A DNA stretch of 43,118 nucleotides. It comes from Candidatus Enterousia sp. GTDB taxonomy: Bacteria > Pseudomonadota > Alphaproteobacteria > Rs-D84. Where the stretch lies: positions 1-43,118 of the forward strand of contig JAZROU010000073.1 of NCBI GenBank assembly GCA_045648865.1, read 5' to 3'. Positions 1-9,073 of this stretch are shown here, piece by piece. Positions within the stretch are counted from its first letter, which is position 1. Each line of letters begins with the position of its first letter. The translations under genes and the position numbers were made by a program. Below the pieces are notes generated by a model. That model worked only from the letters and a program-made list of their open reading frames with translations, was not told the DNA's origin and ran no database searches.

Positions 1-10
1 CAACTATGCC

Positions 11-38
11 TTGCAATTTGCCAATCATTTGTTATCCT
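11..38 (+). promoter_or_regulatory. candidate sigma70-type promoter upstream of yebC
   Basis: TTGCAA (11-16), 16-nt spacer, TATCCT (33-38). Hexamer match by eye only. Confidence 0.3.
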
Positions 39-78
39 TTTGGGGTAATTTTAATCTAAATAAATAAAAAGGTCAAAT

Positions 79-795
79 ATGAGTGGACACAGTAAATGGC
101 ATAATATTCAGCATAAAAAAGGCGCGGCCGACGCAGCACGCAGTGGACTGTTCACAAAACTGGCACGTGAAATTACCATGGCGGCCAAGTTGGGTGATAA
201 AAACCCAGATAACAATCCACGTTTGCGTTTGGCAATTCTGACCGCGCGCAAGGCGTCTATGCCGAACGACAATATTAAACGCGCAATTGACAAGGCTTCG
301 GGGGCGAATACTGAAAATTACGAAGCGGTTCGTTACGAGGGGTATGGACCAGGTGCGGTGCCAGTGATTGTAGAGGCGTTGACCGATAATCCACGTCGCA
401 CTGTGCCGGAAATTCGCAACATCTTTGGCAAAAATGGCGGAAATATGGGCGAAGAAGGTTCTGTTGTGTTCATGTTTACACGCGCAGGTCAGATTATGTA
501 TCCCGCATCCATCGGTAAAACCGAAGATGAAATGATGGAAATTATTATGGAGGCCAATGCCGATAATCTGGAAACGTCCGAAGAAGGCTTTATAATCACT
601 ATCAAACCAGAAGATTTTGTGAACGCGCAAAAATATTTGGCGGACAAACTGGGTGAACCAGAACAGGCCGAATTGACCTGGTTGCCAAATATGCCAATGG
701 ATCTGGACGATGAAGCGTATGCGAAGTTAGAAAAGTTGGTGGATGCGCTGGATGCGAATGACGATGTGCAGAAGGTTTTCACCGCCGCAGAATAA
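79..795 (+). CDS. yebC: YebC/PmpR family DNA-binding transcriptional regulator
   Basis: 238-aa ORF. N-terminus MSGHSKWHNIQHKKG and the length are typical of the YebC family. ATG at 79. Confidence 0.9.
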   Translation: MSGHSKWHNIQHKKGAADAARSGLFTKLAREITMAAKLGDKNPDNNPRLRLAILTARKASMPNDNIKRAIDKASGANTENYEAVRYEGYGPGAVPVIVEALTDNPRRTVPEIRNIFGKNGGNMGEEGSVVFMFTRAGQIMYPASIGKTEDEMMEIIMEANADNLETSEEGFIITIKPEDFVNAQKYLADKLGEPEQAELTWLPNMPMDLDDEAYAKLEKLVDALDANDDVQKVFTAAE

Positions 796-800
796 ACAAA

Positions 801-870
801 AATAATTCATCTAAAAACAAAACCGACAACTTATGTAGCTTCTGTACACTGCGTTGTCGGTTTTGTTTTT
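801..870 (+). repeat. 70-nt hairpin repeat, copy A (probable intrinsic terminator of yebC)
   Basis: Perfect 13-bp stem 818-830/853-865, 22-nt loop, T5 tail. The 16-nt 5' flank AATAATTCATCTAAAA and 19/22 loop positions are identical to copy B at 6257-6326. Confidence 0.8.
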
Positions 871-912
871 GTCTGAAACATTTTTGTTTATTCTGTTTCA
901 GGTGCAAGGGGC

Positions 913-941
913 TTGACTTTTTATATGTAAAGGAATAACAT
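913..941 (+). promoter_or_regulatory. candidate promoter TTGACT-17-TAACAT
   Basis: -35 at 913-918 and -10 at 936-941. The predicted start site falls at about 948-949, on the ATG of the Thr-rich mini-ORF, so the transcript could be leaderless. Confidence 0.35.
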
Positions 942-948
942 TGCCTTT

Positions 949-1005
949 ATGAAAATGTTTGGTTTGTTTTTTACAACAACTACTACAACCCCGTTGGGGG
1001 TATAA
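949..1005 (+). CDS. 18-codon Thr-rich leader-peptide-like ORF (MKMFGLFFTTTTTTPLGV)
   Basis: ATG 949, TAA 1003-1005. Six consecutive Thr codons (aca aca act act aca acc, 973-990). Lies 78 nt upstream of thrS. Too short for the supplied ORF track. Confidence 0.5.
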   Translation: MKMFGLFFTTTTTTPLGV

Positions 1006-1011
1006 ATTCTA

Positions 1012-1040
1012 TTGCGGTGCGTGGCACAAATTCTTATAAT
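1012..1040 (+). promoter_or_regulatory. candidate promoter TTGCGG-17-TATAAT directly upstream of thrS
   Basis: -35 at 1012-1017 and a perfect -10 at 1035-1040. It competes with the attenuation reading of the upstream mini-ORF. Confidence 0.4.
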
Positions 1041-1082
1041 CAAACAGTTAATCAAATTTAAAAAATATAAAAGGCATTTATT

Positions 1083-2816
1083 ATGGCATATGATATTGAA
1101 TTAATACGTCATTCGTTGGCACACGTTATGGCGGCAGCGGTGAAAAAATTACACCCAGATGTTAAATTCGCAGGGGGACCCGCGATTGAAAATGGGTTCT
1201 ATTATGATTTTGATACAGAATATCGTTTTTCCGAAGAAGATTTTGCAAAAATTGAAAAAGAAATGCGGGATTTGATTAAATCAAATGGACGCTTTGAACA
1301 GAAAATTGTATCCCTGGACGCGGCCAAAGAAATCTTTGCCGACCAGCCATATAAAATGGAATGGTTGAATGAATATGATGCCGCAGGCGAGGCATTGTCA
1401 ATCTATACTTTCCGTGATTTTACGGATTTGTGTCGTGGGCCACATGTGGAAAGTTCCAAAGATTTGCCACGGGACGCGTTTAAAATTCGCAGTGTGGCCG
1501 GTGCATACTGGAAGGGGGATGCGAAAAATAAAATGTTACAACGTATCTATGTCGATGCGTTCGCCAGCAAGGAAGAATTGGATAATTTCCTGAAAATGCA
1601 GGAAGAAGCCGCCGCGCGTGATAATCGTAAACTGGGTAAGGATATGGATTTGTTCCATTTCGAACCTGAATATGCGCCGGGGTCGGTGTTCTGGCACGAC
1701 AAGGGGTACAAAATTTATCGTCGCCTGATTGAATATGTACGTCATCGTCAGGAATTAGCAGGATACCAAGAAATTTCAACGCCGGCCGTTATGGACAGGT
1801 GTTTGTGGGAACGGTCAGGCCATTGGGCAAAGTATGGGGAACACAACTATTCAGGAAAAACCCAGGATGGCAAGGTGTTCTGTATTAAGCCTATGTCATG
1901 TCCTGGTGGAATGTTGGTGTTTGGGCATGGACTTCGTTCGTACAAGGATTTGCCACTGTATATGGCGGAATTTGGCAAGGTGCATCGCTATGAGGCGGCA
2001 GGTGGTTTATCGGGCCTGATGCGTGTGCGCGAATTTACCCAGGACGATGCGCATATTTTTTGTACCGAAGAACAATTGGAAGAAGAAGTTGTTAAAATCC
2101 TGCGATTTATCAAGGATATTTATGGCAAGTTTGGATTCGATAAAATTACCATGAAATTAGCCACGCGCAAGGAATCTGAGTTCCGTATCGGGTCTGACGA
2201 AATCTGGGACAAGGCCGAGGGGGCATTAAAGCATGCGCTGGATGCAAATGGTATCGAATATGAAATTGCCGAAGGTGATGCAGCGTTCTATGGGCCGAAA
2301 ATCGATAACTATCTGCGCGATTCAATGGGGCGCGTGTGGCAGTGTGGTACCGTGCAATTGGATATGAATTTGCCAGAACGATTCGATTTGTCTTATGTTG
2401 GCGAAGATGGTGAAAAGCATCGGCCGATTATGTTGCATCGTGCAATGTTGGGGTCGATTGAGCGGTTTATGGGAATCTTGCTGGAATCAACAGGTGGTAA
2501 TTTGCCACTGTGGTTGTCGCCAGAGCCTGTTGTGGTGACGCCAATTTCGCAAAAGCATGCAGAGTATGCAAACGAAGTTGTGGCGGCATTGCGGTCGGCC
2601 GGCGTTAATGCACGTGCCGATTTAAGGGATGAAAAAGTAAACTATAAAATCCGTGAACTGTCGTTGGCAAAAACACCAATCATTGCAGTTGTTGGTGAAA
2701 AAGAAATGGCAGAAAAAAATGTCACGTTGCGTCGGTTGGGTGTGGAAAAACAGGAATCTGTGCCAATGGCGGATTTCGTTGAAATGATGAAAAATAGTGT
2801 GAAAATGCCGTTGTAA
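1083..2816 (+). CDS. thrS: threonine--tRNA ligase (lacks the N-terminal TGS domain)
   Basis: 577 aa. Has the HSLAH editing-domain motif. Zinc-ligand contexts MSCPGG, DDAHIF and MLHRA are present. It aligns from memory to E. coli ThrRS starting at about residue 65. Confidence 0.93.
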   Translation: MAYDIELIRHSLAHVMAAAVKKLHPDVKFAGGPAIENGFYYDFDTEYRFSEEDFAKIEKEMRDLIKSNGRFEQKIVSLDAAKEIFADQPYKMEWLNEYDAAGEALSIYTFRDFTDLCRGPHVESSKDLPRDAFKIRSVAGAYWKGDAKNKMLQRIYVDAFASKEELDNFLKMQEEAAARDNRKLGKDMDLFHFEPEYAPGSVFWHDKGYKIYRRLIEYVRHRQELAGYQEISTPAVMDRCLWERSGHWAKYGEHNYSGKTQDGKVFCIKPMSCPGGMLVFGHGLRSYKDLPLYMAEFGKVHRYEAAGGLSGLMRVREFTQDDAHIFCTEEQLEEEVVKILRFIKDIYGKFGFDKITMKLATRKESEFRIGSDEIWDKAEGALKHALDANGIEYEIAEGDAAFYGPKIDNYLRDSMGRVWQCGTVQLDMNLPERFDLSYVGEDGEKHRPIMLHRAMLGSIERFMGILLESTGGNLPLWLSPEPVVVTPISQKHAEYANEVVAALRSAGVNARADLRDEKVNYKIRELSLAKTPIIAVVGEKEMAEKNVTLRRLGVEKQESVPMADFVEMMKNSVKMPL

Positions 2817-2833
2817 GTCAAGGGGGATAGAAT

Positions 2834-2977
2834 ATGAGAAAAACTATGTTGTTGTTGGCGGTGATGGCGTTGCCATGCGTTGTGGCGGCGTGCGCAAAAA
2901 AGTGCGAGGTGGAACCAATTGTTGAACAAAATCAAAAGCTGATTGTGCCACCAAACTTTGGAAATATGCCAAAGTAA
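2834..2977 (+). CDS. small lipoprotein (47 aa, MRKTMLLLAVMALPCVVAACAKKCEVEPIVEQNQKLIVPPNFGNMPK)
   Basis: RBS GGGGGA 7 nt upstream. Signal peptide plus lipobox VAAC. Followed by a strong terminator. Not in the ORF track (<60 aa). Confidence 0.6.
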   Translation: MRKTMLLLAVMALPCVVAACAKKCEVEPIVEQNQKLIVPPNFGNMPK

Positions 2978-2985
2978 AAAATTAT

Positions 2986-3016
2986 GCCAAAGACATTTTG
3001 TCTTTGGCGTATTTTA
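2986..3016 (+). terminator. intrinsic terminator
   Basis: 9-bp stem GCCAAAGAC/GTCTTTGGC (2986-2994/3000-3008), loop ATTTT, T-rich tail. Confidence 0.7.
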
Positions 3017-3025
3017 TGATATAAT
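3017..3025 (+). promoter_or_regulatory. extended -10 element TGATATAAT
   Basis: TGn plus TATAAT sits 31 nt upstream of the ATG at 3056. RBS GAGGGAG at 3041-3047. Confidence 0.45.
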
Positions 3026-3055
3026 GTCCATAATGAACAAGAGGGAGATTTTATC

Positions 3056-3865
3056 ATGAATGATGATAATAATTTGGATTTACTGGATTTAGACGATAAT
3101 GGCGCAATGGATACATTGCCAGATGCGACGCCGTTCGCAGCGCCACGCCCGAAAAAACCGTGGCTGTTGTTGGGGGTGGGGTTGGTTGTTATCGTGTTGG
3201 CAACCTATGTCATCATTCGTGCAATTGGGGATGATTCTTCGTCTACGATAGAGGTGGATCTGGATGCCCCGGTGGTAGAGGCAGACGCAGGACAACCGGT
3301 GGATATGAATGTAATGCCACCAGTCGATCCGGTTCAGGTACAGCCACAACCTGTACAGGTGCAACCACAGCCTGCGCAACCACAGCCACAGCCGGTTGTG
3401 GCCCAGCCACAGCCAGTTGTTCCAACAGCCGGTGTGCCGGTGCGTGTTGTCGAAGAACGCAAGGAAGTGAAATTTAATCCTGTGGCAGAGGAAAAACCAG
3501 CTGCTAAACCACAGCCTGTGGCGGCGCCAGCAAAGGCCCCGGCGGCAAAACCTGCGGCAAAAAAAGTCGCAAAACCTGCAACCAAGCCGGCCGCAACAAA
3601 ACCAGTGGCAAAGCCTGTGGCGGGTGCATGGTATGTGCAGTTCGGATCATATAGTACGCGTGCGTTGGCCGAAAGTGCCCAGCGTCAGATTCAAAATGCA
3701 CACAAGAGTTTGTTCGAAGGACATCAGTTTGTTATCTTGGCGGCGCAATTAAAGGATGGTAAAACAACATATCGTTTGCGTGTCGCGTTTAAGACAGCTG
3801 CAGATGCAAATGGGTTCTGTCGCAATGCGAAATCTGATGGACTGGATTGTTATGTTGCAAAATAA
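3056..3865 (+). CDS. SPOR domain-containing membrane protein
   Basis: TM segment WLLLGVGLVVIVLATYVII. PQ-repeat and A/K/P-rich linker. C-terminal SPOR-like domain (WYVQFGSYSTRALAE...TTYRLRV). Confidence 0.8.
   Translation: MNDDNNLDLLDLDDNGAMDTLPDATPFAAPRPKKPWLLLGVGLVVIVLATYVIIRAIGDDSSSTIEVDLDAPVVEADAGQPVDMNVMPPVDPVQVQPQPVQVQPQPAQPQPQPVVAQPQPVVPTAGVPVRVVEERKEVKFNPVAEEKPAAKPQPVAAPAKAPAAKPAAKKVAKPATKPAATKPVAKPVAGAWYVQFGSYSTRALAESAQRQIQNAHKSLFEGHQFVILAAQLKDGKTTYRLRVAFKTAADANGFCRNAKSDGLDCYVAK
3329..3421 (+). repeat. in-frame CAGCCACAR-type repeat encoding a (V)QPQP low-complexity tract
   Basis: Translation reads PVQVQPQPVQVQPQPAQPQPQPVVAQPQPVV. This is coding low complexity, not an array. Confidence 0.7.
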
Positions 3866-3884
3866 TTAATAAGGGGATAAAAAG

Positions 3885-4094
3885 ATGTTTGGACGTTTTG
3901 GATGGGCGGAAATCCTGGTCGTTGTTGTGTTGGTAGTTATACTGTTCGGGCATAACAAAATTCCAGGTATGATGAAAAATTTGGCCGATGGGTTAAATGT
4001 GTTTAAGAAAGAGTTGAAAACACAAAAAACAAAAACGTCGGAAAAGTCTGATAAGAAGGTTGTGCGAAAAAAAGCGGCAACTAAGAAGAAGTAA
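3885..4094 (+). CDS. tatA: twin-arginine translocase subunit TatA/E
   Basis: 69 aa. Hydrophobic N-terminus (WAEILVVVVLVVILFG) followed by an amphipathic, basic tail. RBS AAGGGGA. Confidence 0.85.
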   Translation: MFGRFGWAEILVVVVLVVILFGHNKIPGMMKNLADGLNVFKKELKTQKTKTSEKSDKKVVRKKAATKKK

Positions 4095-4101
4095 AATATA
4101 G

Positions 4102-4139
4102 ACCTGCATGAACTTTGTTTGTGCAGGTTTCTTGTTTTA
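4102..4139 (+). terminator. intrinsic terminator
   Basis: Stem ACCTGCA/TGCAGGT (4102-4108/4122-4128), 13-nt loop, T-rich tail. Confidence 0.6.
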
Positions 4140-4186
4140 TTAATGTTGCATAGGTTTTTTTTGTTCTTTTTTGTATGATTGAATTA

Positions 4187-4195
4187 TGGTATAAT
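4187..4195 (+). promoter_or_regulatory. extended -10 element TGGTATAAT
   Basis: TGn plus TATAAT (4190-4195), 25 nt upstream of the ATG at 4220. Confidence 0.45.
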
Positions 4196-4219
4196 TCGCT
4201 TTAAAAGGAGTTGTTTATT

Positions 4220-5437
4220 ATGAAAAAATCGTTATCTGTTATTTTTGGTGTGTTGGTGGCGCTGGGGGCGGTTGGTGCAGACGCTGCAACAAATTGGGGA
4301 ATGCGTGCAGGGTCCAGTGCAGATTTATCAAGTGCGCCGGCCACACGTACACGTGAAAAAGTTAACTATGAAAAATATCAGACGCGTACATTGACCAAGA
4401 CGTATGAGGTCAAAGATGCGGGTGATTTGTATTACACAAAACCACAAAATCGTAGTGCGCTGTATAAACAGTATGAAGGGGCGAATTCTTCGTCGGCGCG
4501 CGCGACAAAAACAACACAGCGCACAACGCGTTCTGAAAAAATTGTGAACAAAATGCGTCGTAAATATTTCTTGGCACATCCGTTCTATCAGCCGTTGGGC
4601 GGTATGTTCGGGTCGCATACTGATTTGTCTTATAATAACAGTTCGTATGATTTTGATATGAACTTGGGCGGAACAATTGGTGGTAAATGGGATATGACCG
4701 GATTTTCTATCAAGGAAGATTTCAGTTATGGTATCACAGATCGTATCGCGATTTTAGGAATGCTGCAGTATGATATGAATGAATACAAATTCGAATGGGA
4801 TGATAATTCGCCAGATGATAAAATGGACGATGATGGTCTGAATTTGTTTGGTTTTGGTGCGCAATGGCGTTTTGTTGATACGACCGAATGGATTGCAACG
4901 GCATCTGCGTATTTCCAGCATCAAAAAGATATTGCAAATAATTTCCTGATTGATTTAAAGGCGGGGTACAAGGTATCGTCATCCACAATATACGGTTTGG
5001 TGCGCGGTTGGTATGTTGATCTGGACGGGGATTCGTATGGTAATGCCGTTGTTGACGCGGATGTAAATGGTGCGGAACAGACGCTGTATATTCCATATCA
5101 GGTCGGGGACAGCAATGCAATGTATTTAGAGGCCGGGTTAGGTGTCTTCAGTGTTCTAAACGAAGATTGGACATTAAATGTAGAGGCGATCTTTGGTGAC
5201 TATGATTGGCATAATCAAGGCAATATCAAGGGGGCAATTGGTTGGCAACCAAATGACTGGTTTGCATTGAATTTGTATGTAAAGACCGCTTTCTATGACA
5301 GTGCCGATGGTAAAGAAAAATATGTTTGGTACAAGTCTGCAGATTTGGGATATCCAGAATGGACCGAAATTGGCACAGTTAAATTGGATAATGTTGCCGA
5401 AACCAAGATTGGTTTGCAGGTGATGTTCCAGTTCTAG
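4220..5437 (+). CDS. outer-membrane beta-barrel protein, unknown family
   Basis: RBS AAAGGAG at 4204-4210. Signal peptide MKKSLSVIFGVLVALGAVGADA. Aromatic-rich, alternating C-terminal half ending ...VMFQF (terminal Phe). The ORF-track start at 4211 is a TTG inside the RBS spacer. Confidence 0.65.
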   Translation: MKKSLSVIFGVLVALGAVGADAATNWGMRAGSSADLSSAPATRTREKVNYEKYQTRTLTKTYEVKDAGDLYYTKPQNRSALYKQYEGANSSSARATKTTQRTTRSEKIVNKMRRKYFLAHPFYQPLGGMFGSHTDLSYNNSSYDFDMNLGGTIGGKWDMTGFSIKEDFSYGITDRIAILGMLQYDMNEYKFEWDDNSPDDKMDDDGLNLFGFGAQWRFVDTTEWIATASAYFQHQKDIANNFLIDLKAGYKVSSSTIYGLVRGWYVDLDGDSYGNAVVDADVNGAEQTLYIPYQVGDSNAMYLEAGLGVFSVLNEDWTLNVEAIFGDYDWHNQGNIKGAIGWQPNDWFALNLYVKTAFYDSADGKEKYVWYKSADLGYPEWTEIGTVKLDNVAETKIGLQVMFQF

Positions 5438-5454
5438 AATTTACTAAATTAATA

Positions 5455-5484
5455 CGCCCCCGGGTATCTGGGGGCGGTGTTTAT
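5455..5484 (+). terminator. intrinsic terminator
   Basis: Stem CGCCCCC/GGGGGCG (5455-5461/5470-5476), T-rich tail. Confidence 0.65.
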
Positions 5485-5506
5485 ATGGGATGTAGGGAGA
5501 GATATT

Positions 5507-6244
5507 ATGCGTAAATTTTTATCGATTTTGGTTTTTTTGGGTGTGATGGCTACACCGTCGTTTGCGCGTGCAAATGATTTGGCAACCGATACGTCGGATC
5601 CGTTGTTTCTGCAGGGGGCAGAAGAAATTTTGTCACAGTCGTCTGTTTCATATTGGGATCATATTTTGCGTTTCGGACAATCGGTATCGTATGGGATGAA
5701 TAATCGGTTGGCAATTGGTGCAAATGTTCATTACCAGCATGACTTTAACGGAACCGAAGATGGGTTTTCTGCCATCGATTTGGGCGGTGCATATCGAATG
5801 GGAAATGCAGATGATAATGATGCGCGTATAATTTCAGATGTTTTGTTCGGTTTCAAGTTTGGGGGCAGTCATCGCGTGCGTACACCAGACTATGCGGATT
5901 CTACGTATTATGTGGGGGTGCGTATGGGGCGTCAATGGGCGGGTATGACATTGGCGGCAACCGTGAAATCAACATGGGTGTTTGATGATGAACGTGGGGT
6001 TGCGTTCCTGGATTTTACACCAGAATCATATTTCCGTATTGCGCCTGATTGGCGAATTGGGGCAGGTCTGACCATTCGCAAGGCAACGCACAAAGACCCA
6101 CAGACAGGTACAGATTATGACCAAGAATGGTTGCATATGAAATTGGTGCGTCAGTATGGTCGTACACAGTATGTGGGGCATATTGACTATGAGTTTGAAT
6201 CGGATGATGCGCAGGTTGGGGCGCGTGTCAACATTCTGTTCTAA
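5507..6244 (+). CDS. outer-membrane beta-barrel protein, unknown family
   Basis: RBS GGGAGAG, then ATG 5507. Signal peptide MRKFLSILVFLGVMATPSFA. Ends ...VNILF. The ORF-track start at 5477 overlaps the upstream terminator. Confidence 0.6.
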   Translation: MRKFLSILVFLGVMATPSFARANDLATDTSDPLFLQGAEEILSQSSVSYWDHILRFGQSVSYGMNNRLAIGANVHYQHDFNGTEDGFSAIDLGGAYRMGNADDNDARIISDVLFGFKFGGSHRVRTPDYADSTYYVGVRMGRQWAGMTLAATVKSTWVFDDERGVAFLDFTPESYFRIAPDWRIGAGLTIRKATHKDPQTGTDYDQEWLHMKLVRQYGRTQYVGHIDYEFESDDAQVGARVNILF

Positions 6245-6256
6245 CAAATAAATTAG

Positions 6257-6326
6257 AATAATTCATCTAAAATCAAATCAGGCATCTTATGTAGCGTCAG
6301 TACACTACGATGCCTGATTTGTTTTT
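6257..6326 (+). repeat. 70-nt hairpin repeat, copy B (probable intrinsic terminator)
   Basis: Perfect 13-bp stem 6274-6286/6309-6321, 22-nt loop, T5 tail. Same flank and loop as copy A. The stem differs at 4 positions, each compensated on the other arm. Confidence 0.8.
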
Positions 6327-6378
6327 ATCTATACCATTATCTTTTATTTTTTACCAAGCATGGGGCGTTGGATTTTGT

Positions 6379-6406
6379 TTGACAATATTTTATTTTGTGT
6401 TAGGTT
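6379..6406 (+). promoter_or_regulatory. candidate promoter TTGACA-16-(TGt)TAGGTT for fabD
   Basis: Consensus -35 at 6379-6384. Extended -10-like element at 6398-6406. The ATG at 6416 has no purine-rich RBS, so the leader is very short or absent. Confidence 0.4.
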
Positions 6407-6415
6407 GTTCTTGTT

Positions 6416-7378
6416 ATGCAAGATAAAATAATTTTTGTTTTTCCCGGTCAAGGTGCGCAATACGTTGGTATGGGCGCAGATGTTTTTAATGATTTTGCGG
6501 TGGCACGTTATGCCTTTGAACAAGTGTCAGATGTCGCAAAACGCGATATTGCAAAAATATCTTTTGAAGGTTCACAGTCTGAATTGAACAAGCCTGAAAA
6601 TACATCGCTGGCAACGTTTGCGCATTCTGTTGCAATTGCAAATGTGGTCGAAGCCGAATTTGGTGTGCCGCTGCATACCATTGCGTATGCAATGGCGGGG
6701 CATTCAATGGGACAGTATTCGGCACTGCATTGTGTGGGCAGTATGAATTTGGTCGATGCTGTACAAATGTTGGCGGCGCGTGCAATGTATATGCAGGATG
6801 TTGCCGGTGCCGGTGGAATGGCGGCAATTGTTGGATTAAACAAAGATGATGTTGAGCAATGTATGGTCGAAGCCGCGGGTAAGGGGTATGCACAGATTTC
6901 AAATCATAATGCACGTGATCAATTCGTTATCAGTGGACATGGAGCCGCATTGGATGCAATTGTAGAGTCGGCACAAAAGCATGGTGCACGTATCGCCAAG
7001 CGATTAAATGTTGCAGTGCCGGCACATTGTGCGTTGATGGCAGGTGCAGAAAAATTGTTGCGCGCACGAATGGAACGGATTCAATTCGATGCGCCTAAGA
7101 CAAACTGGTTTTCAAATCAGACAGCAAATTTTATGTCGAATCCACGTGATGTGCGTGATGCGTTGTGCAATCAGATGACGCATGGGGTGCGTTGGCTGGA
7201 TATTATGGAAACGTTTCCACAGTATAATATTACGCGTGCCTATGAATTGGGGCCGGGACGTACTTTGTCGGGTTTGATTAAGCGGGCAAATGTGGGCTGT
7301 GTCGCAAAAAGTACAGATTATTCGTGTAATGTGCGTGCGATGTTGCGTGAAATTGGCGAAATGATGATTGCGCGTTAG
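6416..7378 (+). CDS. fabD: ACP S-malonyltransferase
   Basis: 320 aa. FPGQGAQ motif and active-site GHSMGQYSA. Confidence 0.9.
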   Translation: MQDKIIFVFPGQGAQYVGMGADVFNDFAVARYAFEQVSDVAKRDIAKISFEGSQSELNKPENTSLATFAHSVAIANVVEAEFGVPLHTIAYAMAGHSMGQYSALHCVGSMNLVDAVQMLAARAMYMQDVAGAGGMAAIVGLNKDDVEQCMVEAAGKGYAQISNHNARDQFVISGHGAALDAIVESAQKHGARIAKRLNVAVPAHCALMAGAEKLLRARMERIQFDAPKTNWFSNQTANFMSNPRDVRDALCNQMTHGVRWLDIMETFPQYNITRAYELGPGRTLSGLIKRANVGCVAKSTDYSCNVRAMLREIGEMMIAR

Positions 7379-8646
7379 TTCGATTTGTTTAATTTTTCAC
7401 GTAAATTGTCCCAATAATCCAGACGCTTTTTTATTTCGCGTTCGAATCCGCGTTCGATGGGTTGGTAAAATTTTTGACGGCCCATAGATTCTGGGAAACA
7501 GTTTTGTCCAGAAAATCCGTTGGCGGTGTCAGGGTCGTAAATATAACCCGCATTATACCCCAGATTCTTCATCATTTTTGTCGGTGCGTTTAATATGTTT
7601 TTTGGAGGCATTAAACTGCCTGTTTCGCGGGCGGCGGCATAGGCAGCCTTTTGCGCGCGATAATTACCAATGCTTTTTGGGGCGGTACCCAGGTATATTA
7701 CCAATTGGGTCAAGGCCAGGTCGCCTTCGGGACTGCCCAATCTTTCGTATGCAGACCAGGCGGCAATCGCAACCTGCAATGCGTTTGGATCGGCCAGGCC
7801 CACATCTTCGACCGCAAAGCGGGTCAGGCGACGGAATATGTACATTGGATCTTGGCCAGATGTCATCATGCGTGCCGTCCAATAAAGGGCGGCGTCTGTA
7901 TCACTGGCACGCAGGGATTTGTGAACCGCAGATATCAGATTATAGTGTTCGTCGCCATGCCTGTCCGACAGGGGGGCGCGTTTTTGTACTGCGTTATTCA
8001 GTTCGTCGGGTGATAATGGTTTTTTAAAATTTGCGTTAAACAGGTATTCAACTGTGTTCAACAAAAATCGTGCGTCGCCATCTGCCATCTGGGCCAGGTG
8101 CGGACGGGTGTCGTTTTCAAGTGGTAATTTCTTACCAACGAATTCTTCGGCGCGTGTTATTAATGTCAATAAATCTGTGGTCGATAATGGCTGTAATACT
8201 CCGATATGACAACGTGATAATAACGCGTTGTTTAAATTAAAACTGGGGTTTTCGGTGGTTGCGCCGATAAATACCACAGTGCCATCTTCCAGGTAGGGCA
8301 GTAATGTATCCTGTTGTGTTTTGTTAAATCGGTGTATTTCATCAATAAACAGTAATGTGCCACGGCCAATGTCCCGGTTCATGCGGGCGGCATCCATTGC
8401 CTTTTTTATATCTGCGGTGCCAGAAAATACAGCCGACATTGGTACAAAGTCCATGTCAACAGAATTTGCCAATGCGCGGGCAATCGTGGTTTTGCCACAC
8501 CCGGGCGGGCCCCACAGAATTAAATTAGATAACTTGTTATTATCAACCATGCGGCGGACCAGGCCGTTTTCGCCCAACAGCGTCGTTTGTCCAATAACAT
8601 CATCAATTGTGTTTGGACGCATTAAATCGGCAAGTGGTCGTGTCAT
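7375..8646 (-). CDS. rarA: replication-associated recombination protein A (AAA+ ATPase)
   Basis: 423 aa. Walker A GPPGCGKTT, Walker B LFIDEIHRF, MgsA-type C-terminal domain. Its stop codon overlaps the fabD stop. Confidence 0.9.
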   Translation of the reverse strand: MTRPLADLMRPNTIDDVIGQTTLLGENGLVRRMVDNNKLSNLILWGPPGCGKTTIARALANSVDMDFVPMSAVFSGTADIKKAMDAARMNRDIGRGTLLFIDEIHRFNKTQQDTLLPYLEDGTVVFIGATTENPSFNLNNALLSRCHIGVLQPLSTTDLLTLITRAEEFVGKKLPLENDTRPHLAQMADGDARFLLNTVEYLFNANFKKPLSPDELNNAVQKRAPLSDRHGDEHYNLISAVHKSLRASDTDAALYWTARMMTSGQDPMYIFRRLTRFAVEDVGLADPNALQVAIAAWSAYERLGSPEGDLALTQLVIYLGTAPKSIGNYRAQKAAYAAARETGSLMPPKNILNAPTKMMKNLGYNAGYIYDPDTANGFSGQNCFPESMGRQKFYQPIERGFEREIKKRLDYWDNLREKLNKSN

Positions 8647-8676
8647 TTTATTTGGCTTTTATTTATGGTTCATTTG

Positions 8677-8685
8677 TGATATAAT
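8677..8685 (+). promoter_or_regulatory. extended -10 element TGATATAAT
   Basis: Lies in the 70-bp divergent gap between rarA and the MucR-like gene. Confidence 0.4.
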
Positions 8686-8716
8686 AATTCTATTAAAATA
8701 TAAAGGAAAGCGCAAG

Positions 8717-9073
8717 TTGGTAAATAAAAATTCTGAGTTTACATTGGCGGTGGCAAATCTGGCGGCGGCGGCAATTAATGCAAATCCAAAACTGACAATG
8801 GAAGAGGCTGTTAAGAACGCGCGCGAAATTTTGCGCGGAACATCAGTGACGCCACAGCAAATTGAAGATTCTGTGATGCCAGATAAAATTCAATGCCTGG
8901 AAGATGGTACGTGGCATGTAATGTTACGCAGATATATAAAACGACGCTTTAATCTGACACCGCAGGAGTATCGTGTAAAATGGGGATTGCCGGATGATTA
9001 TCCGTTTGTGGCGCCTGCGTATGCACGTAAACGTTCAAAAATAGCCAAGAAAAATGGTTTGGGGAGGAAGTAG
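8717..9073 (+). CDS. Ros/MucR family transcriptional regulator (zinc ligands mostly lost)
   Basis: C-terminal half reads CLEDGTWHVMLRRYIKRRFNLTPQEYRVKWGLPDDYPFVAPAYARKRSKIAKKNGLGRK, matching the MucR signature. Start proposed at TTG 8717 with RBS AAAGGAAAG. An alternative start is an ATG 72 nt downstream. Confidence 0.75.
   Translation: MVNKNSEFTLAVANLAAAAINANPKLTMEEAVKNAREILRGTSVTPQQIEDSVMPDKIQCLEDGTWHVMLRRYIKRRFNLTPQEYRVKWGLPDDYPFVAPAYARKRSKIAKKNGLGRK

What the first reader, a model, noticed from the sequence alone, without database searches (positions are those of the whole stretch)
801..870. 70-nt hairpin repeat with conserved loop and flank but covarying stem (copy A, after yebC)
Copy A is AATAATTCATCTAAAA-a-CAAAACCGACAAC-[TTATGTAGCTTCTGTACACTGC]-GTTGTCGGTTTTG-TTTTT. 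It aligns base-for-base with 6257-6326. The 16-nt 5' flank is identical, 19/22 loop positions are identical, and the T5 + TCT tail is identical. Within the perfect 13-bp stem, four positions differ, and each change is matched by a compensatory change on the other arm (stem positions 5, 7, 9 and 12). So 8 of the 13 differences across the alignment are compensatory pairs. That pattern indicates selection on structure plus selection on loop and flank sequence. Ordinary Rho-independent terminators do not require this. The loop also holds an inner TGTA/TACA mini-stem. Candidate explanations: a dispersed structured 3'-UTR/terminator element recognised by a protein or RNase, a small miniature repeat family, or a cruciform DNA site.
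Basis: seen in the sequence. Interest (0 to 1): 0.6.

Follow-up and report, generated by a model that had tools for sequence, protein, structure and literature searches.

The report
Mobile palindromic terminator-like repeat after stop codons
The two hairpins are copies of a roughly 110-base palindromic repeat that spreads through the small genomes of the uncultured gut genus Candidatus Enterousia. It always sits right after the stop codon of a gene on the G-rich (presumed leading) DNA strand and takes the place of the ordinary transcription terminator, and no known transposase is present.

Summary
The whole unit is about 110 nt and has these parts:
- an AT-rich outer stem (P1)
- a conserved ATCT on each side, in direct orientation, which gives a 2x2 mismatch
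- an 18-bp stem that varies a great deal but stays complementary (P2)
- a "loop" that is really TYA, a 4-5 bp mini-hairpin (P3) and CTRC

The window's genome holds 3 full copies and 1 decayed copy. A covariance model finds the family in 20 of 24 genus genomes searched, often as tandem arrays, and once in a neighbouring genus. Rfam has no such family.

Each element starts 0-2 nt after a stop codon and points the same way as that gene. In about 37 of 37 loci its top strand is the G-rich strand. Where it is present, the classic terminator is missing. Identical copies after unrelated genes show recent copy-paste. No Y1, DDE or rve transposase and no integron integrase was found.

Covariation is very strong. 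G:T mismatches are not clearly favoured over A:C, the loop flips in rare cases, and the outer arm tracks the last codons of yebC. DNA-level copying between the arms is therefore likely to contribute.

Best reading: a mobile palindromic cassette that replaces the terminator. How it moves and what reads the conserved unpaired bases are unknown.

The parts
787..896 (+). Copy A, whole palindromic element. It overlaps the last codons and the stop codon (793-795) of yebC.
   Evidence: RNA fold -50.3 kcal/mol, z = -11.5. CM R1 hit 783-900, 109.9 bits.
788..803 (+). Copy A, outer stem P1, 5' arm: CAGAATAAACAAAAAT
   Evidence: Pairs with 880-895. In L034 the coding end is GCATAG and the 3' arm has changed to match it.
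809..812 (+). Copy A, 5' ATCT word. It lies opposite the 3' GTCT/ATCT and forms a T.C/C.T internal loop.
   Evidence: Invariant column block in the 46-copy alignment A2.
813..830 (+). Copy A, variable stem P2, 5' arm: AAAAACAAAACCGACAAC
831..852 (+). Copy A, conserved apical region: TTA, mini-hairpin P3 (TGTA 834-837 with TACA 845-848, 7-nt loop), then CTGC
   Evidence: P3 is kept through compensatory changes: TGTC/GACA in L037 and L094, TGCAG/CTGCA in G002.
853..870 (+). Copy A, P2 3' arm: GTTGTCGGTTTTGTTTTT. The T-rich end looks like an intrinsic terminator.
871..874 (+). Copy A, 3' GTCT. This word is ATCT in nearly all other copies, including the near-identical G124 copy.
880..895 (+). Copy A, outer stem P1, 3' arm: ATTTTTGTTTATTCTG
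903..910 (+). Copy A, 3' tail GCAAGGGG. In tandem arrays this word replaces the 5' arm of the next unit.
6245..6352 (+). Copy B, whole element, starting right after the stop codon (6242-6244) of a beta-barrel outer-membrane protein gene. The flanks are a hybrid of two outer-stem types, so P1 is weak.
   Evidence: CM R1 hit 6239-6356, 108.1 bits. Fold.
6265..6330 (+). Copy B core: ATCT (6265-6268), P2 5' arm (6269-6286), apical region (6287-6308), P2 3' arm (6309-6326), ATCT (6327-6330)
6358..6365 (+). Copy B tail GCATGGGG. The fabD promoter-like TTGACA (6379-6384) follows.

Best explanation
The hairpin is the core of a ~110-nt palindromic, non-coding repeat family specific to Candidatus Enterousia (Alphaproteobacteria, order Rs-D84).

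Shown:
- The family is dispersed and often forms tandem arrays.
- Each unit (or the first unit of an array) begins 0-2 nt after the stop codon of a gene and has that gene's orientation.
- In every contig examined the top strand is the G-rich strand, taken here as the leading strand.
- Identical copies sit after unrelated genes in one genome, so the element has spread by copy-paste in recent times.
- The sequence-conserved parts are the unpaired ones (the ATCT/ATCT internal loop and TYA...CTRC), the small P3 hairpin and the helix lengths. The helices themselves vary freely but stay complementary.

Inferred:
1. The element is transcribed as the 3' end of the upstream mRNA and serves as that gene's terminator or 3'-end hairpin. 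Where it is present the classic GC-hairpin plus T-run terminator is missing, and where it is absent the classic terminator is there.
2. The conserved unpaired bases are read by some factor, which may be a protein or RNase acting on the RNA, or an enzyme acting on the folded single DNA strand.
3. Arm complementarity is kept at least partly by DNA-level copying of one arm from the other (template switching within the palindrome), not only by selection on RNA pairing.
4. Spread happens on the strand that is single-stranded during replication (the lagging-strand template), which would explain the strand rule. The enzyme is unknown.
For: Family and anatomy:
- Searches give the repeat alignment.
- RNAalifold predicts 32 pairs, 27 of them with compensatory changes.
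- The CM finds the family in 20/24 genus genomes and in none of the other nine genera of the order searched except G025.

Position:
- The upstream gene is co-oriented, with the loop 28-49 nt after its stop codon, in 22/23 independent loci.
- In four G088 loci, identity between copies starts 0-2 nt after TAA or TGA of four unrelated genes.

Strand:
- About 37 loci in G006, G018, G004, G020 and the window all lie on the G-rich strand, while only 62-65% of long ORFs do.
- The skew keeps its sign at third codon positions of genes on both strands.

Terminator substitution:
- Empty OMP-fabD sites have a classic terminator; filled sites have the element instead.
- 27/28 filled loci with a co-directional next gene have no classic terminator.
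- 26/37 (yebC) and 10/19 (OMP) empty loci have one within 75 nt of the stop codon.

Mobility:
- Identical stems occur at distant loci in G088, G093, G021 and G111.
- Different stem families occupy the same gene end in different species.

DNA-level copying:
- The loop is inverted between unchanged arms in L035/G044 and L095.
- The 3' outer arm mirrors the yebC coding end: GAATAA in the window against GCATAG in L034.
- The G:T excess over A:C is weak.
- Loop-proximal and distal stem modules are shuffled symmetrically on both arms.

Orientation of the apical region is held at about 297 forward to 1 inverted.
Against: - Termination and 3' ends are therefore untested.
- By eye, fewer than half of the copies have a T-run directly after P2. 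In the others the T-rich tract is the 3' arm of P1.
- A plain terminator needs neither the conserved unpaired bases nor a fixed orientation.
- A pure RNA role does not explain why genes on the other strand lack the element.
- No mobilising enzyme was found. Y1 transposase is missing from 41 genomes. rve and DDE_Tnp_1 are missing from 5 genomes. Reverse transcriptase and a third integrase are sporadic and unrelated to copy number.
- Housekeeping genes are enriched on the leading strand, which softens the strand statistic.
- The absence of a classic terminator could also mean read-through into the next gene.
Confidence: 0.5

Rival explanations
1. A purely selfish DNA element. The folded single strand, exposed on the lagging-strand template, is the substrate of an unidentified structure-specific recombinase or nuclease. 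This enzyme may be host-encoded, or carried on a plasmid or phage that was not binned. It inserts the hairpin next to stop codons or terminators. The conserved unpaired bases are the enzyme's recognition and cleavage sites, and the element has no role in the RNA.
For: - Strict strand rule.
- Recent copy-paste within genomes.
- New units appear to enter next to the stop codon, displacing the 5' half of older units (L080 and L047).
- Copy number varies from 0 to about 25 between species.
- The design, with conserved unpaired bases and free helices, matches how attC sites and IS200/IS605 ends are recognised (established knowledge).
Against: - No Y1 transposase, integron integrase, rve or DDE gene was found.
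- The element does not occur in viral contigs beyond one chance-level hit.
- The same gene ends are occupied across many species, and the unpaired bases have been conserved long enough for the stems to diverge fully. That points to host-level constraint.
- The classic terminator is lost where the element sits.
Confidence: 0.2
2. A regulatory RNA module in 3' UTRs. The long hairpin with its two conserved internal loops is a binding or cleavage site for an RNA-binding protein or an RNase, for example RNase III acting as at the phage T7 intercistronic processing signals. It would set mRNA 3'-end stability or operon polarity for a regulon of housekeeping genes. The covariation would be classical RNA-level selection.
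For: - Strong covariation in three helices.
- Constant helix lengths.
- Apical orientation held at about 297:1.
- Co-orientation with the upstream gene.
- RNase III and Rho are both encoded in the genome.
- The elements follow housekeeping genes such as rpoA, efp, dnaA, dnaN, ftsK and RNase J.
Against: - There is no clear wobble signature.
- It does not explain the absence after genes on the other strand.
- It does not explain tandem arrays whose inner units cannot fold.
- It does not explain large copy-number differences between sister species, with apparent absence in 4 of 24.
- It does not explain recent copy-paste.
- No matching RNA partner was found in the genome.
Confidence: 0.15
3. A replication signal on the lagging-strand template: a single-strand initiation (priming) hairpin like plasmid sso or ssi sites.
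For: - Exclusive orientation on the G-rich strand.
- The commonest loop variant contains TAGCGT, which from memory equals the CS-6 word of ssoA origins.
Against: - Copy number runs from 0 to about 25 and differs between sister species.
- Position is tied to stop codons rather than spaced along the replichore.
- The TAGCGT word is not conserved; TAACTT and TAGCAT variants occur.
Confidence: 0.03
4. Two ordinary terminators that look alike through chance or through a recent local duplication.
For: None remains after the checks.
Against: - The loop pattern is expected 0.01 times per window.
- Hundreds of copies follow unrelated genes in 65 of 151 genus genomes.
- The flanking coding sequences are unrelated.
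Confidence: 0.01

Closest known systems
REP / BIME elements with their RAYT (Y1) transposases
   Same: Short extragenic palindromes found mostly just after genes. They are transcribed into mRNA 3' ends, occur in clusters, and have an orientation bias expected for single-strand DNA chemistry. GTAG/CTAC words occur in the conserved part.
   Different: - In REPs the stem sequence is the conserved part. Here the stems are free and the unpaired bases are conserved.
- Clusters here are direct tandem arrays, not alternating inverted pairs.
- Copy number is tens, not hundreds.
- No RAYT or Y1 transposase gene was found in any of 41 genomes searched.
Bacterial MITEs such as Neisseria Correia/NEMIS elements
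   Same: Non-autonomous palindromic repeats of about 100-150 bp in intergenic DNA. They are co-transcribed with neighbouring genes, can act as terminators and RNase III substrates (established knowledge), and their copy number varies between strains.
   Different: - No fixed terminal inverted repeat sequence.
- No target-site duplication was seen.
- No parent IS or DDE transposase.
- Strict placement at the stop codon in a single orientation.
Integron attC sites
   Same: Imperfect palindromes of 57-141 nt directly after the stop codon of a gene and co-oriented with it. They are recognised through structure and a few unpaired bases rather than stem sequence, act as a folded single strand with strand bias, and new units enter at one end of an array.
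   Different: - No RYYYAAC/GTTRRRY boxes at the base of the hairpin.
- The elements follow core housekeeping genes scattered around the chromosome, not promoterless cassettes.
- No integron integrase. The genome has only XerC-like, XerD-like and one generic tyrosine recombinase.
Rho-independent (intrinsic) terminators
   Same: Located right after the stop codon, with a GC-containing hairpin flanked by an A-rich 5' side and a T-rich 3' side. Copies A, B and C have a T5 run directly after the stem. Their distribution is complementary to that of classic terminators.
   Different: - The hairpin is far longer, about 45 bp in three helices.
- It has conserved internal loops.
- It is repeated and mobile.
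- Many copies lack a T-run directly after the GC-rich stem.
Minute hairpin-loop inversions and quasi-palindrome template-switch mutation (plastid non-coding DNA; E. coli quasi-palindromes; established knowledge, cited from memory)
   Same: The loop flips between unchanged arms, and changes in one arm are copied to the other, giving 'compensatory' changes without selection.
   Different: Those are mutational processes acting on any palindrome, not an element family. Here the asymmetric parts (ATCT/ATCT and the apical orientation) resist symmetrisation, which implies selection.

Membership tests
REP/RAYT (REPIN) system | A cognate RAYT (Y1_Tnp, PF01797) gene in the genome | tested here: not met
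   0 of 41 Rs-D84 genomes match, including the own genome and those with most copies. The control genomes do match.
REP/RAYT (REPIN) system | Conserved palindromic stem sequence with a variable loop | tested here: not met
   The stems fall into at least 26 sequence clusters among 64 unique copies, while the apical region is conserved.
REP/RAYT (REPIN) system | Extragenic location, mostly at gene 3' ends | tested here: met
MITE (non-autonomous DDE transposon) | Fixed terminal inverted repeats shared with a parent IS, and a transposase somewhere in the genome | tested here: not met
   The outer arms are inverted repeats, but they covary and differ between copies. No rve or DDE_Tnp_1 was found in G000, G004, G006, G019 or G021. 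Other transposase families were not searched.
MITE (non-autonomous DDE transposon) | Target-site duplication flanking each copy | tested here: inconclusive
   At four G088 insertion sites the left edge abuts the stop codon. The right edges lie in arrays of different length, so no duplication could be read.
Integron attC | An integron integrase (IntI) in the genome | tested here: not met
   The three tyrosine recombinases score far below the IntI cut-offs of 265 and 435 bits (best 109.7 and 71.9 bits).
Integron attC | R''/R' core sites RYYYAAC...GTTRRRY at the base of the hairpin | tested here: not met
   The base of the hairpin is AAATAAA...TTTATTT, and the conserved words are ATCT/ATCT.
Intrinsic terminator | A stable hairpin immediately followed by a U-rich tract | tested here: inconclusive
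   Copies A, B and C have T5 after P2. Many other copies have ATCT plus a T-rich P1 arm instead. The simple scan does not call copies A or B as terminators; its rule allows loops of only 3-8 nt.
Intrinsic terminator | Produces transcript 3' ends | not testable with these tools
The only support is indirect: complementary distribution with classic terminators.
IS200/IS605-derived PATE | TnpA (Y1) supplied in trans, and subterminal hairpins with a fixed cleavage tetranucleotide | tested here: not met
   No Y1_Tnp. The strand bias resembles this family.
Any Rfam family | A match at the gathering score | tested here: not met
   Only sub-threshold hits to unrelated hairpin-shaped families such as miRNA precursors.

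The most novel reading that the evidence does not exclude
The element is a new kind of structure-specified mobile cassette, a self-propagating terminator. It would be recognised as a folded single strand on the lagging-strand template through its two conserved internal loops. An as yet unrecognised enzyme, or the replication machinery alone, would install it precisely at the stop codon of leading-strand genes. New units would enter next to the stop codon, as in an integron or CRISPR array.
Probability: 0.2. Interest if true: 0.8.

Novelty: new variant of a known kind. Interest (0 to 1): 0.58.

Why it matters
Interspersed palindromic repeats are usually explained by a cognate transposase (REP/RAYT, MITE/IS). 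This family has a very clean architecture: conserved unpaired bases, free helices and fixed lengths. It obeys two strict rules, starting at a stop codon and lying only on the G-rich strand. It replaces ordinary terminators in genomes of under 1 Mb where none of the transposase or integrase families searched for was found.

It therefore offers a compact system for two questions. The first is how terminators are gained and exchanged. The second is how much of the 'compensatory' evolution seen in hairpins comes from DNA-level copying rather than RNA-level selection.

On the practical side, the repeats lie at many contig ends in Enterousia MAGs. They also mark places where gene order differs between species.

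Tried and rejected
- Rfam, E-value mode, window 1-9000: only chance hairpin hits.
- Y1 transposase/RAYT: none in 41 genomes.
- rve and DDE_Tnp_1: none in 5 genomes.
- Integron integrase: not present.
- The third tyrosine recombinase (C10) and reverse transcriptases are sporadic in the genus and unrelated to element copy number.
- Viral contigs: one hit inside an ORF with no stem around it, about what chance predicts.
- Antisense partner of the loop elsewhere in the genome: none at up to 4 mismatches.
- Further partial copies in the own genome: none.
- CRISPR-like reading: rejected, because the variable parts are complementary to each other and fall into related families.
- Wobble test (G:T against A:C): inconclusive, 16:19, then 63:29 and 24:12, with strand-biased mutation as a confounder.
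- Single versus double changes among close copies: compensated doubles far exceed a rough chance estimate even at low divergence (26 observed against about 1-4 expected). This does not separate selection from conversion.
- Literature: no Enterousia paper mentions repeats, and a keyword search found no description of a similar element.

Full report
**1. The observation**

Copy A (window 801-870) and copy B (6257-6326) are exactly as described.
- The 16-nt flank is identical.
- 19 of 22 loop positions are identical.
- Both 13-bp stems are perfect.
- The four stem differences (positions 5, 7, 9 and 12) are each matched on the other arm.

The loop pattern occurs twice in the window, against 0.01 expected from shuffles. 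Rfam holds no such family.

**2. The organism**

The window is contig C73 of an 883,617-bp, 91-contig genome with 43% G+C. YebC orthologues of 92-98% amino-acid identity come from MAGs named Candidatus Enterousia sp. or Alphaproteobacteria bacterium, recovered from ruminant and other animal guts. The literature places the genus in the genome-reduced order Rs-D84 (PMC12306168).

**3. The true extent and anatomy**

A loop-anchored comparison of copies from many genomes and a MAFFT alignment of 46 copies (A2) show a unit of about 110 nt:
- 5' outer arm P1, for example AAATAAAATCTAATGGCAT or AAATTATAATAATTC
- ATCT
- 18-nt (17-19) arm P2
- 22-nt apical region
- complementary P2 arm
- ATCT
- 3' P1 arm, for example ATACCATTATCTTTTATTT
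- often, 8-11 nt further on, GCAAGGGG

The two ATCT words are direct repeats, not inverted, so in the hairpin they form a conserved T.C/C.T internal loop.

The 22-nt "loop" is TYA, a mini-hairpin P3 (TGTA-N7-TACA) and CTRC. P3 is kept through compensatory changes: TGTC/GACA in L037 and L094, and TGTAG/CTACA and TGCAG/CTGCA in a third subfamily.

In the window, copy A spans 787-896. Its outer arm CAGAATAAACAAAAAT (788-803) contains the last codons and the stop codon of yebC and pairs with 880-895. The RNA fold is -50.3 kcal/mol, z = -11.5. Copy B has a 5' flank of one outer-stem type and a 3' flank of another, so its P1 is weak.

**4. Covariation**

RNAalifold predicts 32 pairs, 27 of them with compensatory changes.

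On the structure-blind alignment A2:

| Measure | Observed | Control |
|---|---|---|
| Cells forming a pair | 94.3% | 70.5% in shuffles; about 40% with slid partners |
| Cells changed on both sides | 358 | 103 in shuffles |

Counted from the loop, P2 positions 1 (C-G) and 6-8 (G-C, C-G, C-G) are semi-conserved. Positions 2-5 and 9-18 vary, with all four pair types seen at some positions.

**5. Distribution**

- The own genome has only copies A and B, a full copy C (C45:6141-6259, after an autotransporter gene) and a decayed copy D next to it.
- The covariance model R1 finds the family in 20 of 24 genus genomes and in one other genus (G025, a weak but true homologue with ATCT-18-loop-18-ATCT). 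The other eight genera of the order that were searched have none.
- A strict pattern finds about 297 copies in 65 of 151 genus genomes.
- Many copies lie in tandem arrays with a period of about 88-105 nt. In these arrays the inner units carry GCAAGGGG... in place of the 5' arm and cannot fold well.
- Many copies lie at contig ends, so all counts are minima.

**6. Placement rules**

(a) Position relative to the upstream gene. In 22 of 23 independent loci the upstream gene has the element's orientation and its stop codon lies 28-49 nt before the loop, which puts it at the very start of P1. In G088, four loci with identical first units follow four unrelated genes, and identity between the copies begins 0-2 nt after TAA or TGA.

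(b) Strand.
- The contigs have a very strong GC skew, 0.2-0.34 in the window.
- The skew keeps its sign at third codon positions of genes on both strands, so it is a property of the replication strand.
- In G006, G018, G004, G020 and the window, all of about 37 independent loci have their top strand on the G-rich strand. Only 62-65% of long ORFs lie on that strand.
- Two reverse-oriented elements beside the OMP gene (L214, L215) coincide with a local skew near zero or negative.

(c) Upstream genes. They are diverse housekeeping genes: yebC, a beta-barrel OMP, an autotransporter, rpoA, rpsM, efp, dnaA, dnaN, ftsK, fabF, RNase J, a secretin, T2SS-F, an MFS transporter and a trxB-like gene. The same gene ends are occupied in several species.

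**7. Relation to terminators**

- Downstream of yebC, about half of 80 species carry the element. Those without it mostly have a classic GC hairpin plus T-run right after the stop codon.
- With OMP-fabD synteny conserved, empty sites read stop, classic terminator, TTGACA promoter. Filled sites have the element in place of the terminator.
- In numbers: 26/37 (yebC) and 10/19 (OMP) empty loci have a classic terminator within 75 nt. 27/28 filled loci with a co-directional next gene have none before that gene.
- Other genes in the window use classic terminators.
- RNase III and Rho are both encoded.

**8. Mobility and turnover**

- Identical stems occur at distant loci within one genome (G088, G093, G021, G111).
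- The same stem family follows different genes in different species, and one gene end carries different stem families in different species.
- L080 and L047 show a complete unit placed between the stop codon and the 3' half of an older unit.
- L083 looks like a copy that has lost its apical region and now resembles a plain terminator.

**9. Is the pairing kept at the RNA or the DNA level?**

- Mismatches show no clear wobble signature: G:T 16 against A:C 19 in one set. In a larger set the counts are 63:29 overall and 24:12 per stem cluster, with 19 other mismatches in the per-cluster count. Strand-biased mutation could by itself give a 2:1 excess.
- The apical region is found inverted between unchanged arms in the window's closest relative at the yebC locus (L035 = G044), and again in L095 compared with L098.
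- Across the genus, however, orientation is held at about 297:1.
- The 3' outer arm tracks the yebC coding end: CAGAATAAACAAAAAT with ATTTTTGTTTATTCTG in the window, against CAGCATAGGCAAATAT with ATATTTGCCTATGCTG in L034.
- Loop-proximal and distal stem modules recombine symmetrically on both arms.
- Among close copies, compensated double changes already far exceed a rough chance estimate, but single changes are commoner. This fits both selection and conversion.

My reading is that arm-to-arm copying at the DNA level contributes, while the asymmetric parts are kept by selection.

**10. Search for an enzyme**

- No Y1 transposase in 41 genomes.
- No rve or DDE_Tnp_1 in five genomes.
- No integron integrase.
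- A third tyrosine recombinase and reverse transcriptases are sporadic and unrelated to copy number.
- No presence in viral contigs beyond one chance-level hit.

**11. Conclusion**

The finding is real and is the visible tip of a genus-wide, mobile, palindromic element. It occupies the terminator position of genes on the G-rich strand.

The most likely function is that of a 3'-end or terminator hairpin. This is inferred from its position and its complementary distribution with classic terminators. Its conserved unpaired bases are probably read by an unknown factor. Its spread probably involves the single-stranded lagging-strand template, which is inferred from the strand rule.

It fails the defining tests for REP/RAYT, DDE-type MITEs, attC and IS200/IS605 derivatives. 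I class it as a new variant of the known kind "interspersed palindromic repeat".

Noticed in passing
window 949-1005 (+): An 18-codon ORF, MKMFGLFFTTTTTTPLGV*, with six consecutive Thr codons. It lies between a promoter-like site (913-941) and thrS (1083-2816) and overlaps a CCCC/GGGG hairpin. It is conserved in L034, L035, L041, L047, L048 and L080. It looks like a threonine leader peptide or attenuator for threonyl-tRNA synthetase.
   Followed up: partly
G000:C10:23486-24691: A 402-aa generic tyrosine recombinase is 100% identical in G019 and G016 but missing from most genus genomes. This suggests a recently moving island. It is unrelated to the repeat's copy number.
   Followed up: partly
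whole window and the relatives' contigs: GC skew is unusually strong, 0.2-0.34. It has the same sign at third codon positions of genes on both strands.
   Followed up: yes
G000:C79 around 2593 (-): After a trxB-like gene the sequence reads AAATTATAAAAATTCATTTAATTTAT followed by a classic terminator. This may be the scar of a lost element, since G006 has a full element at that gene end.
   Followed up: no
L032-L111, downstream of yebC: Gene order after yebC differs widely between species (thrS, ruvC and others), and the element sits at the breakpoint. The repeats may mediate rearrangements.
   Followed up: no
L083 about 2230-2300: A yebC-adjacent hairpin has element-like flanks and a P2-like stem but only a 7-nt loop. 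It looks like a copy that lost its apical region and now resembles a plain terminator.
   Followed up: no
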